A stretch of DNA of 64,000 nt from an uncultured Candidatus Binatia bacterium (GCA_965214605.1 OZ243961.1:3360001-3424000); one strand, 5' to 3'; counted from the stretch's first letter, positions 27,654 to 42,646 are shown. Notes: generated by a model not told the origin, from the sequence alone. Numbers and translations are program-made.

Positions 27654-27682
27654 GTAGGGGCGGGTTTCAGACCCGCCCCTAC
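27654..27682 (-). terminator. GTAG-type REP-like palindrome, probably acting as a terminator
   Basis: GTAGGGGCGGGT-TTCAG-ACCCGCCCCTAC; on the minus strand it is followed by T7. Confidence 0.75.
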
Positions 27683-27710
27683 TCGCTCTCTTCTCTGACG
27701 GCGTGCCGTG

Positions 27711-30179
27711 TTAGGCGATAATGCCCTCTTTGGCGGCGCGGAGGAAGAATTTTGGTCTCCACAGGACCAGCGCGGCAGGGACAAAGGTACACGCTCCAAA
27801 GAAGCTAATGCCCATCCACAGCGCCAGCAACAGGCCCATTTCAGAGCAGAAACGGATACTGGCAAAGGCCCACAACATAGTTGCGGCGATCAGGGTGGCG
27901 GCTGTAAAGGCAACCGCCTTACCCGCTGTGTGCAGGCCCATGCGGACCGATTCACTGACTCTGTAGGACTCAATTTCTTTTTCGCTGAGATCCTCCTTAC
28001 CGGCCGAATACTCCTCAAGCGATTTGGCTACGGTTGGGCCGTTGTACTCTTCGACCGCCCGACTCACGATATACAGGGCGTAGTCAATACCAAACCCGAC
28101 TCCAACCGTCACAATCGGCAGTGACTGGAGATTAATTCCGATGTTGCGGAAGCCCATATAGGCATTCACAATACCGTTGGCCAGGAACAGGCCGATCATC
28201 ATCACGAGAGAGGCCACCGGTGAGCGGTAGGTAAACATCACGATCAGGAAGATTGTGCCGAACCCGAGCAGATTCATCAAAATATCGTTTTTCAGAATCT
28301 CTTCGTTGGCCGCTGCTGTCACCCCGATCAGGCCTCCGGCTAAACGATAGTCGGCGGTGTCAAGAGGATTGTCGTCCACGTACTGCTGCACAAAATGCAT
28401 GATCCGGGCAATATTATCGCCCTGGTGATTGGCGCAGTAGAAGGTCACTCGGGTAGTGGTATAACTTGGGTCGAGAAAGCGCGAGGTTTCGCCTGGCGGC
28501 GCCCCGGCGAAGAAGAAGAAGAAGAGGGCGCTGACTTTTTGACGTTCCTGCGGAATCACCCCCCAGCGTGGTTGCATATCGTAGAACGTCATATTGATCG
28601 ACTGAATGATATCGGCCAGCGAGAAACTATAGCCAATATCTGGATCACGCTCCATGTAGCGCTGGAAGCCCTCCATGTTGCGCAACAGGGTCGGATCTTT
28701 GAGTATGTCCTTATCCCGGCCTTCGAGCACGATGATCAAGGGTTCAATACCGCCGAAAAATCGCTGAATCTCGAGGTGCGCCTGGTTATAGGGAGAATCT
28801 AGATGCAGCAGCGGGGTACTGGCACTTGGATCACCGATAGTCAGATGGCGGACTTGGGTCATAGCCAGCATGAAAGCAATAACCCAGAACACGATGACCG
28901 TTCTGGAGTTGCGGGGAACGACAATCCAGGCCGATGCTCGGCCAATAAGACCTTGGAACCAACCCTCCTCTCGTTTGATGACTTTTGATCTCTCAGGGGC
29001 TCTGAGGTAGTAGTAGACGACCGGGTTGAGCAGCAGCTCACTGATTGCTACCGACGCGACCCAGATGGAAGCAGAAATAGCGATCCGTTGGAGGATGACC
29101 ACCGGCACGATGATAATCACCAGCATTCCAAGTGAGTCGGTGATAATGCCGCTTAAGGTCGGCACGAACAGCTCGGCAAAGGCTGAGACAATGGCCTGTT
29201 CTTTATTCCAGTTACAGCGTCGGTACTCTTCATAGTAGCGCTCGTGCATCTGGACCGAGTGGCTCACCGCCCGTGCCGTCACAAAGAAGGGAATTACCAG
29301 GGCCAGGGGGTCCATGGCAAAGCCCATCATGGATTGGATGCCTAAGCCCCAGAAGGCCGAGATAATACCGGTGATGGTCGGCCGCAGAGCACCCCGCCAG
29401 TCGTGGAAGTACAGGTAGAGCAGAATCCAACACACCAGGGTTGCGGCTAGAAAGACGTAGAACACCTCGTTGGCATAATAGTAAATCCAGCCGTACAGCT
29501 GTGGCTCGCCAGCGACGTAGATTTCGTGGTTTTCGGTTTCAAACGGTTCTTTGACCGTCCGAGCAATTTGGTCAAAGATCTCTTTGTAGTCGAGACGGCC
29601 CTCAATAAAGTTGGCCTTGATCAGCAGGGCCTTGCCGTTGAGCGAGACGAGCTGGCCATAGATCGATTCGTCATTATAACAAATCTCCTTGATCTCAGCG
29701 ACCTCGGCCTCAGTCTTGGGGGGGCGGCGCATGACAGGTGGAGTGGCGATCGTTCCGCCCAGGACAGTTAAGTAGCGGGTGGTGCGGTGACCAATCGACT
29801 CAATCTGATCGTGGTTCACCCCTGCTACCCGGTCGATGGCCTGCGTCATGTCATAGATTTTGGTCAGCAGCTCCTTGGTGAAGACATCCCCCTCTTTGAC
29901 CTTGAGCATGACGTTAACGTTGTTCGCGCCCCCAAACTGCTCGGCAAACCGGAAATGGACTTTGATCCAGGGGTGCTGGTAGGGCAGCAGATTGCTGAAC
30001 TGGGTGAACATCTCTATCTGTGCGGCCTGATAGGCCATAAAGCCGGTCAGGACGGCGATGGCAATGGTGATTGGAAAGCGGAATCGAATGAGCCCTTCGC
30101 CAAGGCGGTAGAGGGCGGGTTTTTCCTGTAATGCGTGGGAAACATTTCCCTCTTGCGGGGTGTTCGTTTCATCGGCCAT
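27711..30179 (-). CDS. MMPL/RND (HAE3-like) inner-membrane transporter
   Basis: Two RND halves with large periplasmic loops; ARAVSHSVQ, GVGFGIDY. Confidence 0.9.
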   Translation of the reverse strand: MADETNTPQEGNVSHALQEKPALYRLGEGLIRFRFPITIAIAVLTGFMAYQAAQIEMFTQFSNLLPYQHPWIKVHFRFAEQFGGANNVNVMLKVKEGDVFTKELLTKIYDMTQAIDRVAGVNHDQIESIGHRTTRYLTVLGGTIATPPVMRRPPKTEAEVAEIKEICYNDESIYGQLVSLNGKALLIKANFIEGRLDYKEIFDQIARTVKEPFETENHEIYVAGEPQLYGWIYYYANEVFYVFLAATLVCWILLYLYFHDWRGALRPTITGIISAFWGLGIQSMMGFAMDPLALVIPFFVTARAVSHSVQMHERYYEEYRRCNWNKEQAIVSAFAELFVPTLSGIITDSLGMLVIIIVPVVILQRIAISASIWVASVAISELLLNPVVYYYLRAPERSKVIKREEGWFQGLIGRASAWIVVPRNSRTVIVFWVIAFMLAMTQVRHLTIGDPSASTPLLHLDSPYNQAHLEIQRFFGGIEPLIIVLEGRDKDILKDPTLLRNMEGFQRYMERDPDIGYSFSLADIIQSINMTFYDMQPRWGVIPQERQKVSALFFFFFAGAPPGETSRFLDPSYTTTRVTFYCANHQGDNIARIMHFVQQYVDDNPLDTADYRLAGGLIGVTAAANEEILKNDILMNLLGFGTIFLIVMFTYRSPVASLVMMIGLFLANGIVNAYMGFRNIGINLQSLPIVTVGVGFGIDYALYIVSRAVEEYNGPTVAKSLEEYSAGKEDLSEKEIESYRVSESVRMGLHTAGKAVAFTAATLIAATMLWAFASIRFCSEMGLLLALWMGISFFGACTFVPAALVLWRPKFFLRAAKEGIIA

Positions 30180-30190
30180 GGGGGTCTCCT

Positions 30191-31297
30191 TTATTGGTCT
30201 TTAATCGGACGCCAGGTTTTGCCGAAGTCGTTGGTCAGCAGAATACTCCCTTTTCCGCCGACCATAACGCCTTTGCCGCTTTCCGCAATAGCAACTCCGT
30301 TTAGCCAGGTAAACACGTCGGCATCGGTGGTTGCGGCCGACCAGTTGGCACCATTATTGTCGGAGTTCACTACCAGGCCGTTTGAGCCGACGGCAACAAT
30401 TTGACCGTCGGAAGTTGGCTGAACAAGGTCGTAGATCGGCATGTTCGGGAGATCGGCATGTGTCCCCTCCCGAGAGATCCAGCCCCAGGTCTGACCGCCG
30501 TCACTGGTGGAGGCGACCGAGCCGGCGCCACCAACAATGATGCCATTATTTTGGTCGGCAAAATGGACGCGGAAGAAGGCAGACAGCGACATCACATCTG
30601 AAGCTGCCACCCCCATCTCTCTCAGCGAGTCGATCAAGCTGCCGTGCTGAGAGCCCCAGGTCTGACCGCCATCGGTGGTGTTGCGGATATTGCCGTATTC
30701 CCCCACCATCCAGCCGTTCTGGGCATCAACGAAATGGATGCTGTAGTACATGATATCAGGAACGGCCAGCCTCATATCGTCGTTGAGACCAACCTCGGAC
30801 ACTTCAATGCGCTTGAAGGTCCAGGATTCCCCGCCGTTATCCGTCAATATCAAGGTCGATTCGTCACCGCTCGCCCAGCCGTTCAACTCGTCAGCAAAAG
30901 AGACGGAGAACAGGGTTTTTTCAGTCTGCGACTGCTGCTGAGTCCAGGTTTTGCCGCCGTCGCGTGAGTGGATTACGGTGCCGTAGTGACCGACCGCCCA
31001 GCCGTTATCCCCGATGAATTGCACTTGGTTGAGCGCCCACTCCGAGGGAGACTCGATCTCTATCCAAGTTTCACCGGCATCCTCAGAGCGGATGATACGA
31101 CCGTTGTAGCCGACGATAACAAAGGTATCGCCCGTGGTGTGGGCAACGTCGAAGAATTTATCGGTACGGGTAATCAGTTTCTCGACAAATGCTGCTGAAT
31201 AGTCCCGATGACAGCCGGCTAGCCCAAGACTAAGTACAACGGCTAGAACAAAGAAACTCAGACTTGTGCGGGCACTGCCGGCCCTGTGCATATCCAT
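30191..31297 (-). CDS. YCF48/BNR-repeat beta-propeller lipoprotein
   Basis: Lipobox LAGC; repeated S/TxDGGxTW Asp-boxes; AAAGGAGG RBS. Confidence 0.88.
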   Translation of the reverse strand: MDMHRAGSARTSLSFFVLAVVLSLGLAGCHRDYSAAFVEKLITRTDKFFDVAHTTGDTFVIVGYNGRIIRSEDAGETWIEIESPSEWALNQVQFIGDNGWAVGHYGTVIHSRDGGKTWTQQQSQTEKTLFSVSFADELNGWASGDESTLILTDNGGESWTFKRIEVSEVGLNDDMRLAVPDIMYYSIHFVDAQNGWMVGEYGNIRNTTDGGQTWGSQHGSLIDSLREMGVAASDVMSLSAFFRVHFADQNNGIIVGGAGSVASTSDGGQTWGWISREGTHADLPNMPIYDLVQPTSDGQIVAVGSNGLVVNSDNNGANWSAATTDADVFTWLNGVAIAESGKGVMVGGKGSILLTNDFGKTWRPIKDQ

Positions 31298-31616
31298 CGC
31301 CTGTGACCTCCTTTGAGATGGTGCGAATATGGGCATCCCCGGTAGGGCGGTATGACCTCACGTCCTTTGCATGGTTTTTCTGCAAAAGTCAAGGGTTCAA
31401 GAGGGAGAGAGAATTGGATACCTACTCCGCTCACTCTGACGCCCGAGCGTTAGGTATGGGCGTCAAGCGTGGCCGCCATCGCCTGCCGGTCAATTCACTG
31501 TTCAGCTTCACCATTTAGACCGCCCAACAGAGATGCACAACGCGGATAACGATCGAGAGCGATTCAAATACGGGTCATGAGAGAGGAGCAGGGTTCAGCC
31601 GGTCAAAAGTGGTGCA

Positions 31617-31643
31617 GCGGGAGAGAGAGCAACTCTCTCCCGC
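31617..31643 (-). terminator. Hairpin 3' of the DUF1302-like gene
   Basis: GCGGGAGAGAG-N5-CTCTCTCCCGC. Confidence 0.6.
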
Positions 31644-31655
31644 CTCTGGGTGTTC

Positions 31656-33872
31656 CTAGATGAGGTAGTAGGTGGCTTCAAGCCAGACCAGGTCCTGGTT
31701 CGCAAAATAGTTGAGCAGCGACCATGAGTTACTGTTCTGACTCCCCATGAACCAGGCCGTACCAAACGAAAGGTCAAGCGGCATGCCTCGCAGCTCGCGC
31801 CACCACCACTGCGAGAACAGCAGTACGTGGGCACCACGCGGTTCCCAGGCCACGGCGTTGCGGCCTTCTAGCTTGCCCCGGAAGTATCCGTTGCCTGCCA
31901 GAGCTAGGGTGAACAGGTGGTTCCAGCGTTTGGTGCTACACCCGCGCACCGCATCCCGTTTAGGGGCCAGCGGATCGTCCGGGTTGGCTGGGTCGTATGT
32001 CCCGTCGCCTTGTGTCCTCTTCGATGCATCTGGTTGTGGAAGGGCTGCAGGAAGACCCTGAGCGAAGTTCCAGTTACACATGTTGTTGGTTACCCCTGAG
32101 CGACCTGTAGCGTTGTATTGCATCAGCCACTGGCCGGTCAGGAAGGATTGCTGGACGCCGAACTGCCCGGGCAGGATGCGTGTCCAGCCCATGCCGGGGT
32201 AGCTCATCAGGGACTGGATCAGGTCAAACCCGAACATGCTGCGCCACACGGCACCGCTGTTCAGGATCCGGCCCCGGCGCCGAGCGCGGGAGTTAGGATC
32301 TGCCTCTCCGTTGATTGTCACGGTCTTTTTGTTCAGAGCTTCTTTGGTGCTGTAGCTCTGCTCTAGGCGGAACACTGCCCCGGTGTAGTCGAAGTCGTTG
32401 TAGGTCATGGTAAAGCCGACCACATTCGAGTAGCGCCGCTGGTGGCTGAAACCGTTGGTGCAGTAGGTAACGTTTGGCCGGGCGGCGTGCCGCTGCCTCG
32501 CTGCCCCGGTCGGGAGGCCGTTCTCGTCGAGATGGCGCTCTCCCCAGTTGTAGCCGAGCAGGTCGGTCCCGTGCAGGGCGCCAAAGAAGTTTCCATTAGT
32601 CCGGCCGTTGCGGGCCACACCCTGTTTGCCGCTCTCTGACAGGCAGCGCAGCAACCCCTCACGAAAGCTACCGGCGGCCTCAACCGCTGTCCCGTCTATC
32701 ATGCCGTCTCCATCCATGTCCGGCCCATACTGACTGAAGTCGCTGACAGTGTTCCCGTTGGCAAAGGTGTAGGGGATGTACATGTAGTTGAGGGAGAAGT
32801 CGAGGTTGAAATAAGTGCTGCCGGTAAAGCGGACTCCGGCCGAATGCCAGTGACCTCGGCTGTGGTGATGCGAGTTGCCCTTGGGCAGGTTAACCACAAC
32901 GCTCGTGCGGTCCATAGGCACGTCGGCCGCACACCGGGCGTTGGTCAAACACAGGAAGTCGACCGAGTCGGTTCTGGCGTTGTTGCCGGTGATCTGGAGC
33001 GACCAGGGATGGTCAGAACGCCGGCTGCCAATCCAGGCCGGTCGGTAGGGCAGCATGCGGATTGTTCCGTCGGACCCGACCGTTCCGCAGTCGTCGACAG
33101 ACCAGTCATAGTACATCCCGTCCTTTTCACAGCCGCGCACCTGAAACTGATTCCGCCAGCCATCTTCGAGTACCAAGTCAGTCGCACCAGTGCGGTATTT
33201 GGGGGTGTAGAATGCTTCCACACCTGCCCCCGAAATCCAGGTGCCGATGTTACCGATGTCGTAGAGAGCCTTGAGGGCCAGAATTGGGCTGCGAAATTCG
33301 TCGAATTTCTCACCCACCCCAAAGTTCTGGTCAATCCGTAATGGGTTGACAATATCAATAGAGCGGAACAGGTCAGACTCACCCCACACGATCTGATGAT
33401 ACCCCCAACGGGTGAACAGCTTGCCCGGCCCGATATAGCCGTGGTCAATATCGACGTACAAATCCCGAAAGCCATTCTCCGGCACCAGCCAGTTCTGGGT
33501 GTGCTCTTCGTCGTACAGGTCTTTGTAGTGGTCACGAATCACATAGACCGGATCAACCCGTGAACGCCAGCGGGCACTCAGCGAGGCGCTTTCCACTGTC
33601 GGCACCGGGATTTCGAATTTGCCGAAGAGCTTGCCCCGGCGGTAAAAATTGTCATAAGTCAGCCAGATAAAGCCTTCATTGCGCCACTGCACCCAGTCGA
33701 AATGGTCGCTGTCGGTCTGAAAAGTGTGACGCATGCGATACCAAGTCTGAAGCTCGATGTCTGGTGCTAAGCGGACCGAAGCCCAGGCGTCCGCGCCCCA
33801 GACAAGCAGTCCAAGGGTGCCTACTAGCACGCCGAGGACGAGACGTTGTCCCAGTGTTGTTATTCTTCTCAT
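31656..33872 (-). CDS. DUF1302-like outer-membrane protein
   Basis: Signal peptide, RDLYVD, QIVWGESDLFRSIDIVNP, C-terminal LEATYYLI; context next to YCF48 and RND. Confidence 0.78.
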   Translation of the reverse strand: MRRITTLGQRLVLGVLVGTLGLLVWGADAWASVRLAPDIELQTWYRMRHTFQTDSDHFDWVQWRNEGFIWLTYDNFYRRGKLFGKFEIPVPTVESASLSARWRSRVDPVYVIRDHYKDLYDEEHTQNWLVPENGFRDLYVDIDHGYIGPGKLFTRWGYHQIVWGESDLFRSIDIVNPLRIDQNFGVGEKFDEFRSPILALKALYDIGNIGTWISGAGVEAFYTPKYRTGATDLVLEDGWRNQFQVRGCEKDGMYYDWSVDDCGTVGSDGTIRMLPYRPAWIGSRRSDHPWSLQITGNNARTDSVDFLCLTNARCAADVPMDRTSVVVNLPKGNSHHHSRGHWHSAGVRFTGSTYFNLDFSLNYMYIPYTFANGNTVSDFSQYGPDMDGDGMIDGTAVEAAGSFREGLLRCLSESGKQGVARNGRTNGNFFGALHGTDLLGYNWGERHLDENGLPTGAARQRHAARPNVTYCTNGFSHQRRYSNVVGFTMTYNDFDYTGAVFRLEQSYSTKEALNKKTVTINGEADPNSRARRRGRILNSGAVWRSMFGFDLIQSLMSYPGMGWTRILPGQFGVQQSFLTGQWLMQYNATGRSGVTNNMCNWNFAQGLPAALPQPDASKRTQGDGTYDPANPDDPLAPKRDAVRGCSTKRWNHLFTLALAGNGYFRGKLEGRNAVAWEPRGAHVLLFSQWWWRELRGMPLDLSFGTAWFMGSQNSNSWSLLNYFANQDLVWLEATYYLI

Positions 33873-34085
33873 CCTATACCCTCCTTGAGATCAGGTCTCT
33901 CATGCAAATGCCCTTTTCCTCCATCCTCTTCGCGCGCAGAGAAAATAGCCCTCCTGTAGCTGGGTACCTCCTTTCCTAGATGTGTGCATTCAGCAGGAAG
34001 AATACGCCTGCCCTCCTTCCGTTCGTGCGTGGCTAAGTTGTATCTCCTGCCTCTCAATTGTGAGAGATGCCTCCTGCGCTCTGGC

Positions 34086-34114
34086 CTTATACAGAAAAGC
34101 GTATCCTTGTGCAA
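34086..34114 (-). promoter_or_regulatory. Putative sigma70 promoter of the DUF1302 operon
   Basis: Minus strand TTGCAC-N17-TATAAG. Confidence 0.6.
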
Positions 34115-34685
34115 GTTTCTCTCCTGCTTTTTATCCAAGCCGGAAAACAGGGGAATATCAGCGGAGCCCTCATGACCTAGCGGGAATTGGTAGTGTGCCG
34201 GCTTGCTCTGTCGCGGCTTAGGGAGCCTCCTCTACAAAACTCCTAGACAGCCGGTAAGGGCACTTCCGTGAGCTCACACACATCTCTGGGGTCTCTCCAA
34301 TTCCTCCATAGGTCAAGAATTTCAAGCGAGGGTGCAACATACTTCCCCCATGAAGCCTAATCCCCAGACTACATCTGATTCTGGGCTGGCAGCTTACGCT
34401 CATGATTATCCTTAATTGTTCTCCTTCCTCAATGCTCTCTCTGTCTCTTCACCGCGGCGGCGACGCGGACATGGCTCTGCCCCAGGCCGAGCGTCGGACA
34501 AGCGCTTGAGCTGGGCGGCTATGCACTGGTGGTGTCAATCAGATGCGTATGGACGGCGTTAAAGCAGTGGCGCAGTTCGTGCTGCTCAGTACGCAATCCG
34601 CCGAGTTCGGCACGTAGACCCTGCTCGCTGGCAAGGATGACACCGACTAATGACAAGCCCGGTCTCGTAAGCACTTCTTGCTGTT

Positions 34686-35225: not shown

Positions 35226-35240
35226 GGATGATAGCAAGGC

Positions 35241-35849
35241 TTAGTCTTGGGCAAGGGCTTGGCTTTCTGCTGTGTCCCGCGCCGGCTCGACGGCTTCAGG
35301 GCTGCCGTGTGTGGTCTCGGTGGCGGCTTCAAACAGCAGTTCTTCATAGTAGAACGCGCTATAGCCTAATAGCACCACCTCGGGGGATCCCTCTTTGCTT
35401 GCGTACACGGCGGTTGAGGTGGGGTTGCGGCCACCAATAAAAACGGTGGCCAAATCGCTCTCGGTCTTACCCTTGAGGATAATCGTGGCATGCGGAGGCT
35501 TGAGGCCATAGACGGCCGGATCGTCGGCCGCTTCCTCTACCACCTGGGTCTCTTGTTCCATGGTCAGGTTTTCAATCAGGCTCGTCACCAGCGATGAGGT
35601 AGCGTAGCCCCCCTGGGGTTCAACCACCTGCCAGCTGTCTCCGTCAAACAGACACCGAACCACCTGCCCGTCACGGTGGAGTTGAAGCTCTTGGATAGAC
35701 TCCCGTGAAAAGGGTAAAAAACGACTCTGGGTTGGCGCGTATTCTCTGAGGTGGGGCCTCTCACCGACTGGGTCCCACACAAAGGCAAAAAAATACACGC
35801 CAAACACGGCCGCCAGGCTGTAATAGACGCCAATTCGCAGCCAGCTCAT
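35241..35849 (-). CDS. DUF4340 domain protein
   Basis: N-terminal TM, WQVVEP, YGLKPP, IGGRNP; follows the GldG-like gene. Confidence 0.8.
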   Translation of the reverse strand: MSWLRIGVYYSLAAVFGVYFFAFVWDPVGERPHLREYAPTQSRFLPFSRESIQELQLHRDGQVVRCLFDGDSWQVVEPQGGYATSSLVTSLIENLTMEQETQVVEEAADDPAVYGLKPPHATIILKGKTESDLATVFIGGRNPTSTAVYASKEGSPEVVLLGYSAFYYEELLFEAATETTHGSPEAVEPARDTAESQALAQD

Positions 35850-37219
35850 CCGCGCTGCCTCCGCCACATGAACACGCCGATACCTATTAGCAGAAAGGAA
35901 CCCGGCAGGATGGCTGTGCTGACGAGGAGGATCCGCTGGCCTTGTTCATCGGTCAGGTAAAACTGTTTCTCTCCAGCTGGCTGTTTGGTAGCCCGTTCGC
36001 CAGTCTGACCGATGTCGTCGGCCAGCCAATTGACGGCGTTGATAAAGAGGTCCCGGTTGCCGCCCTGCTCAAGCAGACCGTTGTGGGCAAAGTCGACATC
36101 GCCAAAGACTATGATCCGGCCGGGACTTTCCCCCGGCTGCTCTCTATTGGCAAGAATGACTTCTCCGGCAATCGGGACAGGGCCGCGTAAGTCTCGGCCG
36201 ACAATAAACTGAATTTCGCGCTGGGCTGAGATACGCTGCTCGGCGCTGCCAAAGCCCGACCCTGAGGTTGCCAGAATAGGCGCCGCTCTGATGCCTTTGT
36301 CGAGGTCTTGGCGCACTTCAACGACCCGCGACAGGGAGAAGATCGGCGGAGCGTTAACCGCTTTGATCATATCGTGGGTGGTGGCGGTCCGTGAGGCCCG
36401 AAAGGTAATGGATTCCCCGGCATAGATCCGCTTTGAGGGATCGACAGCGATATAATCTAATGGGTAGACTCCGTATTGCTCCAGAAAGGAGTCAAGATTC
36501 GATGTACTGTTGGGATCGATCATCACAAACAGAGCGCCCCCCCGTTTCAAATAGGCGTCAAGGGCTTGCAGTTCAAAGGGCAGGAACGAATCCGTAGGGC
36601 CGAGCAGGACGATCACCGCGGCATCGTCCGGTACCCCGCCGGCGTCTACCAGCGAGATCTGTTTGGCAACGTAAAACTCGTCCGCCATGGCGCCCCGGAG
36701 TTTGGTGTAGCCGTCTTCGGGTTGAGGGTCGCTGAGATCTCCTTCGCCATGGCCGATCGTAAAATAGATAATCTTTTCCGCGCTGCGGGTGACGTGCAAC
36801 AGGGCTGCGATAACGTCGTTCTCACCGGAATGTAGGGAAGAATGGCGTCTGCGTCCGGCTGACTCAAACACAATTGTGCCATACCGGCGTGCGTCGTACT
36901 GTTGGGCCGTGGCCGGGCTGCGGTTCATGTCGACAATGGTATAGCGAAAGTGCTGGGACAGGCCGTCCATACGGCCTAGCATATCGGCCAGAAAAAAATT
37001 CTCGGGGCGGTCCGGATGGATAAAGGCGATGGCGTGGACATCTTGCTGCAAGTTCGATACCACATGCTGAGTGCGGGGGGCGAGAGTGAACTTCTTCTGC
37101 AGGGTGAGGTCGATCCGTTGGTTATAGTGGACGAGGACCGCTTGAATAGCGATCAACATGGCGAGAAATCCGACTGCTCCAATAAGGAGCTTGAGTGTGT
37201 TGCGTAGGTTGCTACTCAT
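35846..37219 (-). CDS. GldG-like ABC auxiliary component
   Basis: RIDLT..KFTL, YFTIGHGE, GGALFVMIDP, NRDLFINAVNWL; TM at both ends. Confidence 0.88.
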   Translation of the reverse strand: MSSNLRNTLKLLIGAVGFLAMLIAIQAVLVHYNQRIDLTLQKKFTLAPRTQHVVSNLQQDVHAIAFIHPDRPENFFLADMLGRMDGLSQHFRYTIVDMNRSPATAQQYDARRYGTIVFESAGRRRHSSLHSGENDVIAALLHVTRSAEKIIYFTIGHGEGDLSDPQPEDGYTKLRGAMADEFYVAKQISLVDAGGVPDDAAVIVLLGPTDSFLPFELQALDAYLKRGGALFVMIDPNSTSNLDSFLEQYGVYPLDYIAVDPSKRIYAGESITFRASRTATTHDMIKAVNAPPIFSLSRVVEVRQDLDKGIRAAPILATSGSGFGSAEQRISAQREIQFIVGRDLRGPVPIAGEVILANREQPGESPGRIIVFGDVDFAHNGLLEQGGNRDLFINAVNWLADDIGQTGERATKQPAGEKQFYLTDEQGQRILLVSTAILPGSFLLIGIGVFMWRRQRG

Positions 37220-37983
37220 CGGCGCCCCTTCCACTGGCGGGATTCGAGCGAACGGAGGGTCAAAAAGCTAAAGAACAGCACAAAGGCAAGGAAGAAGGTA
37301 ACCTCTTTGAGGTCAATAAATCCCTGGGCAAAACCCTGAAAATGGGTGACCATGGAGGTCTGGGATAACCAATACAGAAAGCCCTCGCGAGTGGCGCCCT
37401 CATTCCAGCTCAGGATCCAGAAGAACAGCAGCGTACACAGCGCGGCAAAGCCGGCCACCACCTGGTTGTCGGTCAGCGAGGAAATGAATAGGCCGCACGC
37501 GATGCAGGCCAGGGCAATGAGCACCAGTCCGCTATAGCCGGCCAGGACAAGCGTCCAGTTAAACGGCTGAACCCAGTAGACCAGAAGGGGATAGATCGCG
37601 GTAAAGGACAGCATGAACAGGGTGGCAAGGCTACAGGCGACGAATTTGCCCAGATACAACTCGGCGTCCCGCATCGGATAGGTCAGCAGAAGCTCAATCG
37701 TTCCCAGCCGTTTTTCTTCGGCGAACAACCGCATGGTCAAGAACGGAATCGCCAGCAGCAGCATCAGGCGGATATCGGTAAAAACGAGCTGCCAAAAATT
37801 TTCAATGATATTGAGGCCAAAACCGAACTGAACGTAGAAGATGAGGTCGGTATAAAAATAATAGCCGCTGACCAGCAGAAAGACTGCGGTGACAAGATAG
37901 ATAAACGGCGACAGAAAGTACGAGCGGAGTTCTTTGGCGACAATGGCCTGAAAATTTATCAAGAAGGTCCCTGCCTGTCCCAT
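37216..37983 (-). CDS. ABC-2 permease (GldF-like)
   Basis: KELRSYFLSP, TMRLFAEEKRLGTIELLLT. Confidence 0.9.
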   Translation of the reverse strand: MGQAGTFLINFQAIVAKELRSYFLSPFIYLVTAVFLLVSGYYFYTDLIFYVQFGFGLNIIENFWQLVFTDIRLMLLLAIPFLTMRLFAEEKRLGTIELLLTYPMRDAELYLGKFVACSLATLFMLSFTAIYPLLVYWVQPFNWTLVLAGYSGLVLIALACIACGLFISSLTDNQVVAGFAALCTLLFFWILSWNEGATREGFLYWLSQTSMVTHFQGFAQGFIDLKEVTFFLAFVLFFSFLTLRSLESRQWKGRR

Positions 37984-38036
37984 TTCCCGTCTCCTTCGGA
38001 GGCATCTATCCTGAACTGATCGCAGGATGTCGCCGG

Positions 38037-38996
38037 CTAGGCCGCTGAACGGTGTCCCTCTTTTGTCAGGCGCACAAATAATTCTTCTAAGCCGGCGGTG
38101 AGCGGATTGAGTTCGTGCAGGGACCAACCTCGGTTGACCACGAGCTTGGCGAGCTGGTGGCTGAGGGCGCGGTCTTGCGAGTGGACAAGAAAGAGCCGGC
38201 CCGGCTGTTCATCCTCCTCTTCCGGGGGGTCTTGAAGGATAACTTCACTCACTCCGGGCAGGGCTTTGAGCGCGTTTTGAACCTCCTGTACCGGACCTAC
38301 AATCCGCATCCGCGTCTGGGTGGCGGAGCGCAGTCGTTCACCGAGTCCCGCCGGGGTATCCTCGGCCAGGATTTGGCCTTTATCGATAATCACCACGCGG
38401 TGACACACCTGGGCGACTTCAGCCAGAATATGGCTCGATAGTAAAATGGTCGTTTTTCCGCCCAGACTCTTGATCAGCTGGCGCATATCGATCAGCTGAT
38501 GGGGATCAAGACCGATCGTGGGTTCGTCGAGAATCAAGACCTGGGGATCACACAGCAGGGCTTGGGCTAGGCCGACCCGCTGGCGATAGCCTTTTGATAA
38601 GGTGCCGATATGGCGACGGGCCATGTGACTGAGGCCACAGAGGTCGAGCACGCGCTCGACCTGCTTGTGCCGTTCCTTCCCAGCAGCCGTTTTCACTCGT
38701 ACGCAGAAGGCCAGAAAAGCACGGACCGTCATATCTGGATACAGCACGACATTTTCGGCCAAATAGCCGAGCTTGCGGCGCATCTCCAAAGACGCGGTTT
38801 CGACATCGTAGCCGGCCACCACAACCCGGCCCTCGGTCGGCGGGAAGAACCCGGTCAGAATGCGCATGAGTGTAGTTTTGCCCGAGCCGTTTGGGCCTAA
38901 CAACCCGACGATCTCTCCTTCTTGGACGTCGAAGGAAACCCGGTGCAAAGCCCGCACCTGACCGTAGTATTTGGTAATGTTATGGACTGCGATCAT
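38037..38996 (-). CDS. ABC transporter ATP-binding protein (GldA-like)
   Basis: GPNGSGKT, LSKGYRQR, LDEPTIGLDP, SSHILAEV. Confidence 0.93.
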   Translation of the reverse strand: MIAVHNITKYYGQVRALHRVSFDVQEGEIVGLLGPNGSGKTTLMRILTGFFPPTEGRVVVAGYDVETASLEMRRKLGYLAENVVLYPDMTVRAFLAFCVRVKTAAGKERHKQVERVLDLCGLSHMARRHIGTLSKGYRQRVGLAQALLCDPQVLILDEPTIGLDPHQLIDMRQLIKSLGGKTTILLSSHILAEVAQVCHRVVIIDKGQILAEDTPAGLGERLRSATQTRMRIVGPVQEVQNALKALPGVSEVILQDPPEEEDEQPGRLFLVHSQDRALSHQLAKLVVNRGWSLHELNPLTAGLEELFVRLTKEGHRSAA

Positions 38997-39023
38997 ACTG
39001 CCTTCTGCATCTCTGGGGCAGTC

Positions 39024-39389
39024 TTATTCGGCCGGGACTCGGGACGGGGCAGCCTTGAGTTGGTCGAGCTCGGTTTGCAGCTCTGCGGCTCTGTTCTCTG
39101 CCTGTTCAACTTGCCGTCTAAACGTGTCGGCGCGTCGGCTGAGCACGTCCCTGTCTTTGGTAACGGTTTTGAGATTTACTTCATATTCGGCGTTTTGTAG
39201 ACGCAGAATGCCGACTTCTCCGGGCAGGATTCCGGAGAAAAGGGCCGAGGTGAGTCCTAAGCGCTCAAACGCGATGCCAGCCAGGACTAGGGCAAGCCAT
39301 AAGACTCCGACGCCAACATAGCCCCAAGTAAGCTTGGCAAGTGATTCGTCTTCTATGCCCTGTTGTTCTTCTGTTTTTTCTTTCGCCAT
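39024..39389 (-). CDS. Single-TM coiled-coil hypothetical protein
   Basis: One hydrophobic helix, then a heptad-rich C-terminus; GAGGGA RBS. Confidence 0.7.
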   Translation of the reverse strand: MAKEKTEEQQGIEDESLAKLTWGYVGVGVLWLALVLAGIAFERLGLTSALFSGILPGEVGILRLQNAEYEVNLKTVTKDRDVLSRRADTFRRQVEQAENRAAELQTELDQLKAAPSRVPAE

Positions 39390-39481
39390 AAGTCCCTCTC
39401 TATTATTGTGAAGATGAAGGATTACATAGCAAAGAACTGGAGAGGAGAAAAGGCGAGGGTCCTTATCTATGGGTCGCATGT

Positions 39482-39515
39482 CGGTGAACAAGGTGCCGAA
39501 GCACCTTGTTCACCG
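39482..39515 (-). terminator. 15-bp perfect hairpin with a C(UUCG)G tetraloop
   Basis: Minus strand CGGTGAACAAGGTGC-TTCG-GCACCTTGTTCACCG, 7 nt after the DUF1329 stop; no U-tract. Confidence 0.75.
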
Positions 39516-39522
39516 CCGAACT

Positions 39523-40887
39523 TTAGCGAGCGCTACGGATCAGGAAGTTGACCGAGAACGCTTCTGGCGTGTTAATCGGAGTGGCCTCGTTGAAGTACCA
39601 TTCCTGGGTCCACTCATTCTTTGACCGGGCGTAGCCAGACGGTGCGTCCCACTTGGTCGAGTGGGCCAGCTGCACGTCAGCGCCCATCCCATGCGGGGTG
39701 AAGGCCCACACGTCTTGGTAGTCGTACTTGGCCCCTTCCAGTTTGTTGACCGGATAGCCCTTGTACGGAGTGCTCACGTAGTTGAACAGGTTGAACCAGA
39801 ACTTCCACAGCTCTCCACCCTGGTCATACATCTCGGCAAAGCTCATCCCCCAGAAGTCCTTGTCGATGTACATGATTCGCTTGGAGTAGGCATACTGGCT
39901 GTAGGCCGACGGAATCCCTTCGACCACATACACCGGCCGCCGCTCCCAAGGGACATTACAGGGGATGAAGGCCGTTATTCCAGTCGTGCCGTCAGGCTCT
40001 GCGCACCACACCTTGCGGGTGCCGTACAATCCAATGTGAACCGGGGCTAGGATGTCTTTTTCCGACAAGACCCGGAAGGTCCAGTAGGAGTGCTTGGAGT
40101 TGAACCCCCACAGCGAGTCCAGATCCATGTCCGTCCCCCAGAAGGCGTCACTGCGGTTGGCCACGCTGATGCGGCGCACCCGGCGTAACTCGGGCAGGTA
40201 CATGTAGGAGTCATCCGGGACGTCCATCCCCAGATAGCGATTGTTGAGCACCCCCGCCCCCTTAAGGTCGTTGGGGATAAACAGCGGTCCGAACTGCTCC
40301 GTATAGCGCATCGGCGGATTGTTCGCCACGACCGGCTTTGGATCGGTGTACAAACGACCCGTCCACATCATGCGCCGCCAGAACTGCGACCCGTAGGTCC
40401 GCTCCAGCTCCCCCTTGCTGTTGACGAGCTCGGTGATCCACTCGGTGCCCACATTGTCCACATACTGGGGCTTTTGTTCCTGGTTCCACATGACCTTGGC
40501 CCCGGCCAGCGGATCGTTGAGATCGATGTTGGGAAAGGGCACCCCGGACACATAGTTGAACATCTCCCGGCCGTCTGGGGAGATCTCAACCTGACCAGAG
40601 TATTTCTCGGTCGCCTCTTGGAAGAGGCGGGGCAGTGGGACCTTGATCGTCTTGATGACCCGGATCTCCATGCCTTCGTTGACGAACCACTGAATCCCGG
40701 GGATAAGCAGGTCGCCGGCCTCCGCCATATTATCTTTCGTAAATACCTCGCCGGTGTATTCGTGCTCAGGGCCGATACATTCGACTAGCGTACAATCGGA
40801 GTACGCTGCGTTGGCTGGATCTGCCGGACTGAACGCGCCAATGGCTAGTCCAGTACAGGCGATTCCAAAGAGTTGCTTCAGTTTCAT
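39523..40887 (-). CDS. DUF1329-like periplasmic protein
   Basis: Signal peptide, GVPFP..D..AGAKVMWN, YLPELRRVRR, YDQGGELWK; GGAGG RBS. Confidence 0.88.
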   Translation of the reverse strand: MKLKQLFGIACTGLAIGAFSPADPANAAYSDCTLVECIGPEHEYTGEVFTKDNMAEAGDLLIPGIQWFVNEGMEIRVIKTIKVPLPRLFQEATEKYSGQVEISPDGREMFNYVSGVPFPNIDLNDPLAGAKVMWNQEQKPQYVDNVGTEWITELVNSKGELERTYGSQFWRRMMWTGRLYTDPKPVVANNPPMRYTEQFGPLFIPNDLKGAGVLNNRYLGMDVPDDSYMYLPELRRVRRISVANRSDAFWGTDMDLDSLWGFNSKHSYWTFRVLSEKDILAPVHIGLYGTRKVWCAEPDGTTGITAFIPCNVPWERRPVYVVEGIPSAYSQYAYSKRIMYIDKDFWGMSFAEMYDQGGELWKFWFNLFNYVSTPYKGYPVNKLEGAKYDYQDVWAFTPHGMGADVQLAHSTKWDAPSGYARSKNEWTQEWYFNEATPINTPEAFSVNFLIRSAR

Positions 40888-40930
40888 AGTATTTCCTCCC
40901 TGTGAGACCGTAGTCTGCGTGAGAATATAG

Positions 40931-40971
40931 TCTGCAACCACGACATGTTATAATCTGCAACCACAACATGT
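40931..40971. repeat. 18-bp direct repeat, putative operator
   Basis: TCTGCAACCACGACATGT (40931) and TCTGCAACCACAACATGT (40954). Confidence 0.75.
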
Positions 40972-40989
40972 ACTGTTCACATCACTTCA

Positions 40990-41835
40990 TTAGGGTGGAC
41001 CACGTTCCATTTCATCCTCTCCATACTGCCCAAATGACAGAAAGCGAGGGAAAAGGTCAATAGCCTGATCAGAGGCTTTTTTGACCTCCAGAGGGAGAGG
41101 GGCTGGTGAACCACTATTTTTTTGGCTGAGCTTCCGTTCCAGAATGCCGTCGATAATGGTTTCAAGGTTGGTCTGGGAAGTGGTCTTGACCCGAATCCAG
41201 CCATCAAGAATGAAGCCAGGTACGGAATCGAGCTGGTAGCGACGTCCTAAGGCTACACTGCGGGCGACCTCCGCCTTGCCGTCTTCGCCTGCTAGGCGGG
41301 TGAGCAGCAGGTCTGGATCAAGACCGATCCTGTCCGCCACTCGGGCCAGGCCGTCCCGGCTGGTAATATCGAGCTGCTCTTCGAACTGGACCTGAAAGAG
41401 CGCCTGTTGCATCTCTTTGCGGAGACCAAACTCGTCGGCCAAGACGTAGGCACGGGCCGGGATAGAGGATTTTTGGTCGACAATCGGGTAGCTGAGGAAC
41501 TCGACTCGCAAGCGGGTGCCATATTTTTTTTGGAGCTCGGGGATGAGTTGAGTAACCGCTCGGTAGCAGGCCGCGCACAGAAAGTCCTCAAAGACGGTCA
41601 GTCTGACCGAATCCGGCCCAGCCTCCTGGGGGGCACGCCGGACGAAGTCATAGGAACCGGGTATGGAAAAGTAGCGGTCAAGGAGGTCCTCTGCGGCTGA
41701 ACTCAGCTGAGGTAGGCAGAAGACGCTCAGCAGCCCGAGGCCGAGTCCGAGATGTTTCAGCCGCCGCCCTCTCCGGTATGGTCGAGCCGTCTTCATGAAT
41801 GATCGGAGTTTCTTGCGTGGGTGGGAGTGAGTCAT
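40990..41835 (-). CDS. Exported DsbA-family thiol-disulfide oxidoreductase
   Basis: Signal peptide, FEDFLCAACY, SVPGF cis-Pro. The start is either 41835 or 41796. Confidence 0.82.
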   Translation of the reverse strand: MTHSHPRKKLRSFMKTARPYRRGRRLKHLGLGLGLLSVFCLPQLSSAAEDLLDRYFSIPGSYDFVRRAPQEAGPDSVRLTVFEDFLCAACYRAVTQLIPELQKKYGTRLRVEFLSYPIVDQKSSIPARAYVLADEFGLRKEMQQALFQVQFEEQLDITSRDGLARVADRIGLDPDLLLTRLAGEDGKAEVARSVALGRRYQLDSVPGFILDGWIRVKTTSQTNLETIIDGILERKLSQKNSGSPAPLPLEVKKASDQAIDLFPRFLSFGQYGEDEMERGPP

Positions 41836-41946
41836 GCTTGAAGCCCCCCCAGCAGCCCCGCGCAAGAGGCGGACAGGGCACGGGTGGAGCTGGCGCCTAG
41901 GCGTCTGATGAGGGGCGGGCCACATAAAAAAGAACGACGCTGTCCT

Positions 41947-42039
41947 TGTCTGTCTCTGGGTTGGCGGGCTATAGTCACCGTCGTGGCGTCCCCACCTGGT
42001 TTTTGGGGGGTGTTTGTCTCTGCGTTGGCGGGCTATAGT
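41947..42039 (+). repeat. 29-bp direct repeat ending in TATAGT (duplicated promoter/operator)
   Basis: TGTCTGTCTCTGGGTTGGCGGGCTATAGT and TGTTTGTCTCTGCGTTGGCGGGCTATAGT, period 64. Confidence 0.75.
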
Positions 42040-42079
42040 ACGGAAGTGCTCGTAAGTCTTTGTGTAGGAGGAGGATATC

Positions 42080-42646
42080 ATGCGTCGGCTGTCCTTTGTC
42101 ATGTTGTCAATATTCTTGGCTTTTGCCTTTTTTCTGGTCGCCCTCGGAGGGGCAGCTCAGGAGGAGGGCCAGGACGACCTGAGAAACATCAAAATTGGCT
42201 ACGTCGACCTGGTGCGGGCTATGGCTGAGTGCGAGGCGGGCAAAAAGGCCCAAGACCAACTCAAGAAGGATCTCGAAAAGTCGGAGGCTCGTTTGCGGCA
42301 GCAGAGAGATCGGGTCGAAAAGCTCAAAGAGGAGCTTGAAAAGAAGGGCATGGTCCTCCGTGAAGAAGAACGTGACGCGTTGGGACAGGATTACCGTCAG
42401 AGCCTGCGAGATTTTGAACGACGTTATAAAGATGCCGAGGAAGATCTCAAGATCAAAGATCGCCAGCTGACCAGTCGGATCATGGTGCAGTTGCAGCAGA
42501 TTGTGGCCGAGCTAGGCGAACAAGGCGCATATACGGTTATTTTAGAAGGCAATAACACTGTCGTCTTATATGGCAAGCAAGATATTGATCTGACCGATCA
42601 GGTCATTCAGGAACACAATAAGCGTTTCCCCCAGAAAAGAGGCTAG
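42080..42646 (+). CDS. skp: OmpH/Skp periplasmic chaperone
   Basis: Signal peptide, KIGYVD, coiled coil, DLTDQVI. Confidence 0.9.

What the first reader, a model, noticed from the sequence alone, without database searches (positions are those of the whole stretch)
27711..42646. Extended trans-envelope locus: DUF1302 + DUF1329 + YCF48 + RND together with a GldAFG-like ABC system, DsbA and Skp
Seen: a co-oriented minus-strand run of dsbA, DUF1329, TM coiled-coil, ABC ATPase, ABC-2 permease, GldG-like, DUF4340, lipoprotein, [promoter], DUF1302, YCF48 lipoprotein and MMPL/RND, with skp divergent. Established: the DUF1302-DUF1329-YCF48-RND quartet recurs near genes for catabolism of hydrophobic compounds and is largely uncharacterised; GldAFG-like ABCs of unknown substrate occur in non-gliding bacteria. 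Inference: the ABC module sitting between DUF1329 and DUF1302, plus two folding factors, may form one larger machine for uptake of lipophilic substrates or for its assembly. This is the best candidate here for an undescribed system.
Basis: partly seen in the sequence, partly recalled or inferred. Interest (0 to 1): 0.75.

Follow-up and report, generated by a model that had tools for sequence, protein, structure and literature searches.

The report
ABC-augmented RND envelope transporter locus
An uncultured Binatia bacterium keeps an ATP-driven ABC pump set next to a proton-driven RND pump, its outer-membrane barrel and two periplasmic helpers, probably as one system for moving greasy molecules across the cell envelope.

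Summary
The gene run is real and lies at the stated coordinates. The "DUF1302" gene is a divergent member. Pfam hmmscan misses it, but a profile comparison with the genome's other DUF1302 paralogues gives 99.85% probability.

The quartet is a known kind: AmeABCD of Castellaniella and the cofit Shewanella cluster. What is new is its linkage to a GldAFG-like ABC set plus DUF4340, and that linkage holds.
- A second, differently ordered locus in the same genome repeats it.
- All 17 relatives examined keep the window-type block.
- Of 46 full-flank loci found through GldG alone, 38 carry YCF48 and RND on the same strand, in at least five gene orders. All are Binatia-type MAGs, so these are not independent cases.

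The DsbA-like gene is constant in the window-type locus only, as is the unrelated aconitase gene, so it may be frozen synteny. Skp occurs in one genus only and is not part of the system.

I found no expression data and no interface evidence. Direction and cargo are inferred.

This scan noted the same pairing earlier on other Binatia DNA (e1-2772449, e1-2773020, e1-932550). My literature searches found no description of it.

Verdict: a new variant of a known kind.

The parts
40990..42102 (-). DsbA-like periplasmic thioredoxin-fold protein. The longest ORF is 370 aa. The likely start is near 41796, giving about 268 aa with a signal peptide and a CAAC motif. It is constant at the 5' end of the window-type locus.
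   Evidence: PF01323 42.5 bits; translation; present in window-type loci of relatives
39523..40941 (-). DUF1329, a LolA-like periplasmic protein with a Sec signal peptide. It is the only DUF1329 gene in this locus.
   Evidence: PF07044 162.5 bits and PF17131 57.4 bits; PDB 3bk5 LolA-like, E 1e-8
39024..39491 (-). Small single-pass membrane protein with a periplasmic coiled coil and no family. It is conserved between DUF1329 and the ABC ATPase in window-type loci.
   Evidence: No Pfam or NCBIfam hit over threshold; orthologues in relatives
38037..38996 (-). ABC ATPase, GldA/DrrA-like
   Evidence: PF00005 127 bits; TIGR03522 GldA 284.8 bits (cut-off 402.6) and drrA 226 bits
37216..38127 (-). ABC-2 permease, GldF-like (likely start 37983)
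   Evidence: PF12679 and PF12698; TIGR03518 GldF 116 bits, below the 288.5 cut-off
35846..37234 (-). GldG-like auxiliary protein with TM segments at both ends and a large periplasmic domain
   Evidence: PF09822 71.8 bits; TIGR03521 56.5 bits, far below the 389.85 cut-off; sequence
35241..35867 (-). DUF4340 protein: an N-terminal TM helix followed by one compact alpha+beta periplasmic domain
   Evidence: PF14238 44.5 bits; AF2 model with mean pLDDT 86.3
34686..35237 (-). 183-aa helical lipoprotein with no family, specific to the window-type locus
   Evidence: No family; orthologues follow DUF4340 in relatives; atlas look-alikes are unnamed lipoproteins
33873..34685 (-). Long intergenic region. 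It holds a promoter-like site at 34432-34405 and 10 sense-strand AGGAG motifs. It is either a 5' leader of the DUF1302 gene or a read-through spacer.
   Evidence: no Rfam match
31656..33872 (-). Divergent DUF1302-family outer-membrane protein (738 aa, signal peptide, 8 Cys, large insertions)
   Evidence: PF06980 31.5 bits in the six-frame search; hhalign 99.85% against paralogues; BLASTP 4e-13 against the locus-2 DUF1302
30191..31336 (-). YCF48-like BNR beta-propeller lipoprotein (LAGC lipobox)
   Evidence: PF14870 112 bits; PDB Ycf48 2xbg and 5ojr, E 1e-14
27711..30179 (-). HAE3/MMPL-type RND inner-membrane transporter
   Evidence: PF03176 85 bits; TIGR00921 HAE3 165 bits, below the cut-off
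27652..27684 (-). Terminator-like hairpin (14-bp stem, 9 G-C pairs, T-rich tail) that ends the run

Best explanation
This is a composite envelope transport locus. It joins an AmeABCD-type set (DUF1302 outer-membrane barrel, LolA-like DUF1329, YCF48-like propeller lipoprotein, HAE3 RND pump) to an exporter-type ABC-2 system (GldA/GldF-like ATPase and permease, GldG-like and DUF4340 anchored periplasmic proteins).

Shown:
- The genes exist and are tightly packed.
- The ABC set and the RND/YCF48 (and usually DUF1329/DUF1302) genes stay together across Binatia in several different gene orders, including a second locus in this genome.

Inferred:
- The two inner-membrane engines, one driven by ATP and one by the proton gradient, serve one pathway.
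- Each engine extracts a hydrophobic molecule from the inner membrane and hands it to shared periplasmic parts (the YCF48-like propeller and the LolA-like carrier).
- The cargo then goes on to the DUF1302 barrel, most likely outward. That could be efflux of a toxic or excess hydrophobe, or delivery of a lipid to the outer membrane.

In the window's genus the only DUF1329 gene of the locus sits in the ABC transcription unit, while DUF1302, YCF48 and RND sit in the next unit. The quartet is therefore split across the ABC module.

The small TM coiled-coil protein and the 183-aa lipoprotein are lineage-specific accessories. DsbA may fold the Cys-rich barrel and carrier, but this is weakly supported. 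Skp is an unrelated neighbour.
For: 1. Second locus in the same genome. L009 carries YCF48-RND-DUF1302-ATPase-permease-GldG-DUF4340 contiguously on one strand. Its proteins are only about 27-31% identical to the window's.

2. Window-type block in relatives. It is kept in 17 of 17 relatives fetched, down to 46% GldG identity and into another family of the order. In 12 of 17 the ABC lies between an upstream DUF1329 and a downstream DUF1302. In 2 of 17 the contig ends. In 3 of 17 the order varies.

3. Loci picked by GldG homology alone. Of 46 loci with at least 7 kb on both sides, 40 have at least one quartet family on the same strand, 38 have YCF48+RND, 33 have DUF1329, 25 have DUF1302 and 24 have all four. 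Of all 80 loci the counts are 59, 45, 44, 31 and 26.

4. Distinct gene orders:
- the window type;
- YCF48-RND-DUF1302-ABC;
- YCF48-RND-ABC-GldG-DUF4340-DUF1329(x1-2), with overlapping genes in L046;
- YCF48-ABC-GldG-DUF4340 with no RND in the flanks (L042, L043, L045; Pfam check);
- DUF1302-YCF48-RND-ABC-DUF1329 (L130, L131).

5. Parallel divergence. GldG and its neighbouring YCF48 and RND diverge together across 60 modules of three paralogue classes: r = 0.97 and 0.90 over all pairs, 0.73 and 0.66 for between-class pairs only.

6. Topology fits one envelope-spanning path. There are signal peptides or lipoboxes, TM anchors on GldG and DUF4340, and a strand pattern compatible with a barrel.

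7. Published data on the quartet. Deleting ameABCD lowers monoterpene tolerance and raises Nile Red accumulation (PMC6394551, abstract and passages read). The four genes are cofit in Shewanella, Kangiella and Pseudomonas (bioRxiv 10.1101/072470, one passage read).
Against: - All loci come from one lineage (Binatia-type MAGs), so the counts are not independent.
- Within the window-type clade, synteny also preserves the unrelated aconitase gene, in 22 of 46 full-flank loci. Conserved order alone can therefore be frozen synteny.
- The quartet does not need the ABC. Only 2 of 8 DUF1302 genes in this genome are near a GldG gene, and published quartets have none.
- The ABC does not need the quartet. 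One of 3 GldG sets in this genome stands alone (L011). 29 of 104 unique modules showed no quartet neighbour, although many of those sit on short contigs.
- An 813-bp gap with a promoter-like site separates the ABC unit from DUF1302-YCF48-RND, so they may be separate transcripts.
- Nothing here shows physical contact, cargo or direction.
Confidence: 0.5

Rival explanations
1. Two independent transporters that are only neighbours. The ABC-2/GldG/DUF4340 set and the RND quartet each work alone, perhaps on related cargo or under one regulator, and stay adjacent through shared regulation or inherited gene order.
For: - Each module also occurs without the other: L011 and other stand-alone ABC sets, and 6 of 8 DUF1302 genes in this genome lie away from any GldG gene.
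- An 813-bp gap and a promoter-like site lie between the units.
- The unrelated aconitase gene is conserved in the same block.
Against: - The association recurs in at least five different gene orders and in anciently diverged paralogous loci.
- YCF48 sits directly before the ABC ATPase gene where no RND is present (L042, L043, L045).
- DUF1329 overlaps the DUF4340 gene end in L046.
- In the window's genus the locus's sole DUF1329 gene is in the ABC unit.
Confidence: 0.3
2. An uptake system. The barrel, the LolA-like carrier and the inner-membrane parts bring hydrophobic growth substrates (alkanes, fatty acids, terpenoids) inward.
For: - Some related loci are flanked by beta-oxidation genes: acyl-CoA dehydrogenase, enoyl-CoA hydratase and SDR in L042 and L045.
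- Published quartets lie in catabolic islands, and mutants grow poorly on the hydrophobic substrate (PMC6394551; bioRxiv 10.1101/072470).
- Binatota are predicted alkane degraders (PMC8262859, title and abstract as listed).
- The families have many paralogues here, 8 DUF1302 and about 15 DUF1329 genes, which suggests many substrates.
Against: - The ATPase and permease are nearest to exporter families (GldA/DrrA, ABC-2).
- HAE3 RND pumps move cargo outward, a family property stated in PMC6394551.
- There is no canonical solute-binding protein in the locus.
- The AmeABCD data were read by their authors as efflux.
- The window's own locus is flanked by housekeeping genes: aconitase, gltX and a TPP enzyme.
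Confidence: 0.2
3. DsbA and Skp are dedicated folding factors of the machine.
For: - The DsbA-like gene is at the 5' end of every window-type locus whose flank was available: 16 of 17 relatives' genomes, with one contig cut.
- It has an intact CxxC motif.
- The barrel and carrier are Cys-rich: 8 Cys in DUF1302 and 5 in DUF1329.
Against: - DsbA is absent from all other architectures.
- Cys counts do not separate loci with and without DsbA: DUF1302 has 6-9 Cys with it and 0-8 without.
- Aconitase is conserved alongside to the same degree.
- Skp is found only in the window's genus, in 5 of 17 relatives and 2 of 80 loci. It is also divergently transcribed.
Confidence: 0.2

Closest known systems
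AmeABCD of Castellaniella defragrans 65Phen, a tetrapartite HAE3 RND system (PMC6394551; abstract and passages read)
   Same: It has the same four families: a DUF1302 outer-membrane protein, a DUF1329 LolA-like protein, a COG4447/YCF48-like protein and a COG1033 HAE3 RND pump. It handles hydrophobic compounds.
   Different: AmeABCD is a contiguous four-gene cassette with no ABC transporter, GldG, DUF4340, DsbA, TM coiled-coil protein or extra lipoprotein. Here DUF1329 is separated from DUF1302 by six genes, and the barrel is much larger and more divergent.
Cofit DUF1302/DUF1329/BNR/RND cluster of Shewanella amazonensis (Sama_1588-1591), Kangiella and Pseudomonas (bioRxiv 10.1101/072470; one passage read)
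   Same: It contains the same four families. Genetic evidence shows that the four work together in the envelope.
   Different: No ABC module is mentioned in the passage read. Its authors proposed export of a cell-wall component. There are no genetic data for Binatia.
GldA/GldF/GldG gliding-motility ABC transporter of Flavobacterium (NCBIfam TIGR03522, TIGR03518, TIGR03521)
   Same: It has the same three-part design: ATPase, ABC-2 permease and a doubly anchored GldG-type auxiliary protein.
   Different: All three proteins score far below the equivalog cut-offs. The organism is not a Bacteroidota glider. The set here carries DUF4340 and is tied to RND/YCF48 genes.
"Nanopod" gene cluster of the benzene-degrading Desulfobacterota strain ORM2a (bioRxiv 10.1101/2024.12.15.628547; passages read)
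   Same: It has a porin-like protein, a DUF1329 protein and an RND protein in one highly expressed cluster of an uncultured hydrocarbon degrader.
   Different: The only 'ABC' hits in that text concern the abcA carboxylase gene, and no ABC transporter appears in the passages shown. Its supplements could not be seen.
Lpt and Lol pathways (LptB2FGC-LptA-LptDE; LolCDE-LolA-LolB). This is a functional analogy only, recalled and not tested here.
   Same: An ABC extractor in the inner membrane hands a lipidic cargo to periplasmic carrier or bridge proteins and on to an outer-membrane acceptor.
   Different: The protein families are unrelated apart from the LolA-like fold of DUF1329. Neither pathway includes an RND pump or a beta-propeller.

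Membership tests
AmeABCD-type tetrapartite HAE3 RND system | DUF1302 (PF06980) outer-membrane protein | tested here: met
   hmmscan finds nothing. The six-frame PF06980 search gives 31.5 bits against a 23.2 cut-off. hhalign against the genome's PF06980 paralogues gives 99.85%, E 1.3e-30. It is a divergent member.
AmeABCD-type tetrapartite HAE3 RND system | DUF1329 (PF07044) LolA-like periplasmic protein | tested here: met
   162.5 bits against a 23.1 cut-off
AmeABCD-type tetrapartite HAE3 RND system | COG4447 / YCF48-like BNR propeller | tested here: met
   PF14870 112 bits; PDB Ycf48, E 1e-14
AmeABCD-type tetrapartite HAE3 RND system | HAE3 (COG1033) RND inner-membrane pump | tested here: met
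   PF03176 85 bits, over its cut-off. The best NCBIfam hit is HAE3 TIGR00921 at 165 bits, under the subfamily cut-off of 351.9.
AmeABCD-type tetrapartite HAE3 RND system | Four genes form one contiguous cassette in the order A-B-C-D | tested here: not met
   DUF1329 lies six genes upstream of DUF1302, with the ABC module between them.
AmeABCD-type tetrapartite HAE3 RND system | Efflux of, or tolerance to, hydrophobic compounds | not testable with these tools
   This needs genetics or transport assays, and the organism is uncultured.
GldAFG gliding-motility ABC transporter | GldA equivalog score (TIGR03522, cut-off 402.6) | tested here: not met
   284.8 bits
GldAFG gliding-motility ABC transporter | GldF equivalog score (TIGR03518, cut-off 288.5) | tested here: not met
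   116.1 bits
GldAFG gliding-motility ABC transporter | GldG equivalog score (TIGR03521, cut-off 389.85) | tested here: not met
   56.5 bits. The wider family PF09822 is met at 71.8 bits against a 34.7 cut-off.
DsbA-like thioredoxin-fold oxidoreductase | DSBA domain with a CxxC active site and an export signal | tested here: met
   PF01323 42.5 bits against a 25.6 cut-off. The CAAC motif and a signal-peptide-like N-terminus are visible in the translation.
Skp/OmpH chaperone as part of this system | Conserved linkage to the locus | tested here: not met
   The protein is a Skp-family member (PF03938 91 bits). The gene is present only in the window's genus: 5 of 17 relatives and 2 of 80 loci.

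The most novel reading that the evidence does not exclude
The GldA/F/G-like ABC set with DUF4340 is a general ATP-driven extractor for envelope lipids or hydrophobes. It plugs into different periplasm-crossing hardware in different phyla. In Binatia it docks through the YCF48-like propeller onto the RND/DUF1329/DUF1302 route, which would make this a transporter with two energy sources, ATP and proton gradient, feeding one outer-membrane exit. Earlier notes of this scan report the same ABC set joined to AsmA-like bridge proteins in Verrucomicrobiota. I did not test those notes.
Probability: 0.3. Interest if true: 0.75.

Novelty: new variant of a known kind. Interest (0 to 1): 0.55.

Why it matters
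The DUF1302/DUF1329/YCF48/RND sets are common in hydrocarbon, terpene and steroid degraders, and their mechanism is unsolved. GldG/DUF4340 ABC sets are widespread and have no known cargo.

A lineage in which the two are persistently joined gives each a testable partner. In some of its gene orders the YCF48-like propeller sits with the ABC set alone. The arrangement also suggests how an RND pump without a membrane-fusion protein or TolC reaches the outer membrane.

It would also be a rare case of ATP-driven and proton-driven engines sharing one envelope route.

The value is limited for now, because the evidence is gene neighbourhood only and comes from one uncultured phylum.

Tried and rejected
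- Complex prediction. I folded GldG residues 37-432, DUF4340 residues 32-190 and YCF48 residues 43-381 together, each with its own alignment. The score was 0.00 in both runs and the verdict was "no answer". The controls were not folded. I use this neither for nor against binding.

- Expression. No RNA holder was listed: 5 DNA-type holders from 2 studies. I laid no reads, so co-expression is untested.

- Rfam scan of 27000-43000 at E<=1: no match.

- DUF4340 fold. The AF2 model is good (pLDDT 86.3), but Foldseek against PDB gave nothing at E<=0.001. VIA-align wide gave 4r7r (Z 8.6, rmsd 3.1, 107 residues), 4q0y (Z 7.0), 2mct (Z 6.9) and YycH 2fgt (Z 5.3). The first three are structural-genomics proteins of unknown role, and these Z values are in the range the tool calls common. 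They give no functional lead.

- DUF1302 model. Mean pLDDT was 55.7, too low for a fold search. Only its pattern of many long strands is noted.

- PDB sequence searches. There were no useful hits for GldG (IFT52 GIFT domain, E 0.03), DUF4340, DUF1302, the permease or the RND pump.

- Cysteine counts against DsbA presence: no clear separation.

- Plasmid collection, tblastn with GldG: 2 weak hits (Bradyrhizobium, Subdoligranulum), not followed up.

- Kinship of oddly labelled MAGs. The tool gives no kinship for genomes reached through loci. Whether any locus lies outside Binatia is therefore unknown, and I did not survey other phyla.

- First attempt at the genome scan. A 14-sequence alignment was rejected as too divergent. 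A 6-sequence alignment worked.

- Atlas look-up of the 183-aa lipoprotein: only unnamed lipoprotein clusters.

- Literature searches. The terms were DUF1302/DUF1329; DUF4340/GldG; Binatota/Binatia; and COG3225/COG4447/PF09822/PF14238/ABC_transp_aux. No listed paper joins the ABC/GldG/DUF4340 set to the quartet. None of the 30 papers listed of 133 holds "DUF4340". In PMC8262859 the terms RND, ABC transporter, efflux, outer membrane, FadL and hopanoid do not occur.

Full report
**1. What is in the sequence**

The window is G000:C1:3360001-3424000 of a 4.37-Mb genome in 9 contigs.

- 42102-40990: DsbA-like protein.
- 40941-39523: DUF1329.
- 39491-39024: 155-aa single-pass membrane protein with a coiled coil, no family.
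- 38996-38037: ABC ATPase.
- 38127-37216: ABC-2 permease.
- 37234-35846: GldG-like protein.
- 35867-35241: DUF4340.
- 35237-34686: 183-aa lipoprotein, no family.
- 34685-33873: an 813-bp gap.
- 33872-31656: a 738-aa protein.
- 31336-30191: YCF48-like BNR lipoprotein.
- 30179-27711: MMPL/HAE3 RND pump.

skp lies at 42080-42646 on the plus strand.

Overlaps of 19 and 22 nt and a 3-nt gap join permease, GldG, DUF4340 and the lipoprotein. A terminator-like hairpin with a 14-bp stem follows the RND stop codon at 27684-27652. The TPP-enzyme gene downstream is therefore a separate unit.

In the gap there is one 9-of-12 promoter-like match at 34432-34405. Such matches are no more frequent in this region than in shuffles: 10 found against 8.1 expected.

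**2. The DUF1302 call needed checking**

hmmscan finds no Pfam family for the 738-aa protein, even at E<=10. A six-frame search finds PF06980 at 31.5 bits on one short stretch.

BLASTP against the recognised DUF1302 of the second locus gives E 4e-13 over the WGE-D-FR-D-NP region and also matches the C-terminal strands. A profile of 15 orthologues compared with a profile of six other DUF1302 paralogues of this genome gives 99.85% probability, E 1.3e-30, over 477 columns.

It is therefore a divergent DUF1302 with large insertions. The AF2 model is poor (pLDDT 55.7). It shows only many long strands, which is compatible with a barrel.

**3. Organism**

Related loci carry titles of Candidatus Binatia/Binatota MAGs, or "Deltaproteobacteria". 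A few carry plainly wrong labels such as Enterobacteriaceae or Klebsiella.

Binatota are described as methylotrophs and alkane degraders (PMC8262859, title and abstract as listed). That paper does not contain the terms RND, ABC transporter, efflux or outer membrane.

**4. Is the ABC set linked to the quartet?**

Four lines of evidence bear on this.

(a) A second locus in the same genome. L009 (C1:3538001-3556000) carries YCF48, RND, DUF1302, ATPase, permease, GldG and DUF4340 contiguously on one strand. Two DUF1329 genes lie about 7 kb away. The two loci are old paralogues: GldG is 28% identical and YCF48 27%. The third GldG set of the genome (L011) stands alone. Overall, 2 of 3 GldG genes but only 2 of 8 DUF1302 genes are in such composite loci.

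(b) Relatives. I fetched the neighbourhood of the best GldG match in 17 relatives: 5 of the same genus, 11 of other genera in the family, and 1 of another family in the order. All 17 keep ATPase-permease-GldG-DUF4340-lipoprotein inside a block of quartet genes.
- In 12 of 17 a DUF1329 gene is upstream and DUF1302 is downstream.
- In 2 of 17 the contig ends.
- Three differ. G021 has no DUF1302 in the locus. G014 has it 15 kb away on the other strand. G025 has RND upstream in place of DUF1329, and DUF1302 after the RND.
- Outside the window's genus, a second RND gene sits between DsbA and DUF1329, and often a second DUF1329 follows the lipoprotein. The window's genus has lost both.

(c) Loci chosen by GldG homology alone. 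A scan of one genome per species returned 80 loci. I annotated them with HMMs built from the proteins already collected.
- Of 46 loci with at least 7 kb on both sides, 40 have at least one quartet family on the same strand, 38 have YCF48 and RND, 33 have DUF1329, 25 have DUF1302 and 24 have all four.
- Of all 80 loci the counts are 59, 45, 44, 31 and 26.
- At least five gene orders occur. One is YCF48-RND-ABC-GldG-DUF4340-DUF1329(x1-2), with overlapping genes in L046. Another is YCF48-ABC-GldG-DUF4340 with no RND in the flanks (L042, L043, L045).
- After removal of duplicates, 104 modules fall into these classes: window type 38, YCF48-RND-ABC 23, second-locus type 5, YCF48-ABC 4, RND-ABC 5, and none seen 29. 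Many of the last class are on short contigs.

(d) Parallel divergence. Across 60 modules that have all three genes, pairwise identity of GldG tracks that of the neighbouring YCF48 (r 0.97) and RND (r 0.90). For between-class pairs only, r is 0.73 and 0.66. The window-type GldGs form one clade of 39 rows with support 100.

**5. Cautions**

- All these genomes are kin, so the counts overstate independence.
- In the window-type clade the unrelated aconitase gene is conserved at the edge of the block in 22 of 46 full-flank loci, about as often as DsbA at 25. Conserved order within that clade proves little by itself. The argument rests on the different architectures and on the paralogous locus.
- I did not survey other phyla. 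The tool gave no kinship for the oddly labelled MAGs.
- The 813-bp gap may separate two transcripts.

**6. DsbA, Skp and other neighbours**

The DsbA-like protein has a CAAC motif and an export signal. It heads every window-type locus whose flank was available: 16 of 17 relatives' genomes, with one contig cut. It is absent from every other architecture.

Cysteine counts in DUF1302 and DUF1329 do not separate loci with and without it. A dedicated folding role is possible but cannot be told from frozen synteny.

Skp is present only in the window's genus, in 5 of 17 relatives and 2 of 80 loci. It is not part of the system.

The TPP enzyme follows the RND gene in 11 of 17 relatives, but behind a terminator in the window.

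**7. Parts without a family**

- DUF4340 folds confidently (pLDDT 86.3) as a TM helix plus one compact alpha+beta domain. Foldseek finds nothing at E<=0.001. The wide structural search gives only proteins of unknown role at Z 5-9.
- GldG has TM segments at both ends and only a faint IFT52 GIFT-domain match in the PDB.
- The lipoprotein and the TM coiled-coil protein are specific to the window-type locus.

**8. What is known**

- The quartet is AmeABCD of Castellaniella defragrans. Its deletion lowers monoterpene tolerance and raises Nile Red accumulation (PMC6394551, abstract and passages).
- It is also the cofit cluster Sama_1588-1591, for which export of a cell-wall component was proposed (bioRxiv 10.1101/072470, one passage).
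- A similar "Nanopod" cluster is highly expressed in a benzene-degrading Desulfobacterota strain (bioRxiv 10.1101/2024.12.15.628547, passages; supplements not seen).
- The ABC proteins resemble GldA, GldF and GldG but score far below the equivalog cut-offs: 284.8 against 402.6, 116.1 against 288.5, and 56.5 against 389.85.
- My searches found no paper that joins the two modules.
- Earlier AI notes of this scan describe the same pairing in other Binatia genomes (e1-2772449, e1-2773020, e1-932550). They are leads, not independent support. My own counts agree with them.

**9. Mechanism**

Shown: gene content, packing, topology signals and persistent linkage.

Inferred:
- There are two inner-membrane extractors, an exporter-type ABC-2 pump with GldG and DUF4340, and an HAE3 RND pump.
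- Both pass a hydrophobic molecule to the YCF48-like propeller and the LolA-like DUF1329, and on to the DUF1302 barrel.

The direction is most likely outward, judged from the pump families and the AmeABCD data. Uptake of growth substrates remains possible. In its favour, beta-oxidation genes flank some related loci and the families have many paralogues here. The cargo is unknown.

**10. Verdict**

This is a new variant of a known kind, of moderate interest.

Noticed in passing
window 33873-34685 (minus strand): The gap upstream of the DUF1302 gene holds 10 AGGAG motifs on the sense strand and none on the antisense strand. Shuffles give a mean of 1.4 and a maximum of 7 in 300. The matching gaps of relatives show 0-4. 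There is no Rfam match.
   Followed up: partly
window 19222-24546 (minus strand): A second envelope module lies close by: a LolA_like protein (24546-23752), two MacB/FtsX-type permeases (23755-22490, 22486-21161), an ABC ATPase (21263-20442) and a 407-aa protein with no family (20445-19222). It resembles the ABC plus LolA-like carrier plus barrel operons noted elsewhere in this scan.
   Followed up: no
L009 6252-16214 (= G000:C1:3544252-3554214): A paralogous composite locus, YCF48-RND-DUF1302-ATPase-permease-GldG-DUF4340. A divergent 531-aa gene with no family lies upstream. Further on are an aldehyde:ferredoxin oxidoreductase gene and two DUF1329 genes (L010).
   Followed up: yes
window 25901-27589 (minus strand): A TPP-dependent enzyme, acetolactate-synthase-like or 2-hydroxyacyl-CoA-lyase-like, with every NCBIfam hit below its cut-off. 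It follows the RND gene in 11 of 17 relatives, but in the window it sits behind a strong terminator.
   Followed up: partly
L013 9213-14489 and L014 5286-10226: Two same-genus relatives (G004, G005) carry the DUF1302 gene of this locus as a tandem duplicate. The copies are 81-84% identical to the window's protein.
   Followed up: no
L054, L072, L073, L076, L078: Public MAG records titled Enterobacteriaceae or Klebsiella pneumoniae carry window-type Binatia loci (54-58% GldG identity). These titles look like taxonomic mislabels.
   Followed up: no
window 48163-52845 (plus strand): A PrkA kinase, DUF444 and SpoVR-like trio, which is a known conserved stress-response gene set.
   Followed up: no
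window 17958-18509 (plus strand): A second DSBA-domain protein (PF01323 47 bits) lies in the same window, unlinked to the locus.
   Followed up: no
L028 2205-5531 (G014) and L050, L051: Some GldG-like genes sit in open frames of 730-1119 aa that also cover the permease or ATPase region. These may be fusions or over-extended frames. The 730-aa type (L050, L051) stands alone, without quartet genes.
   Followed up: no
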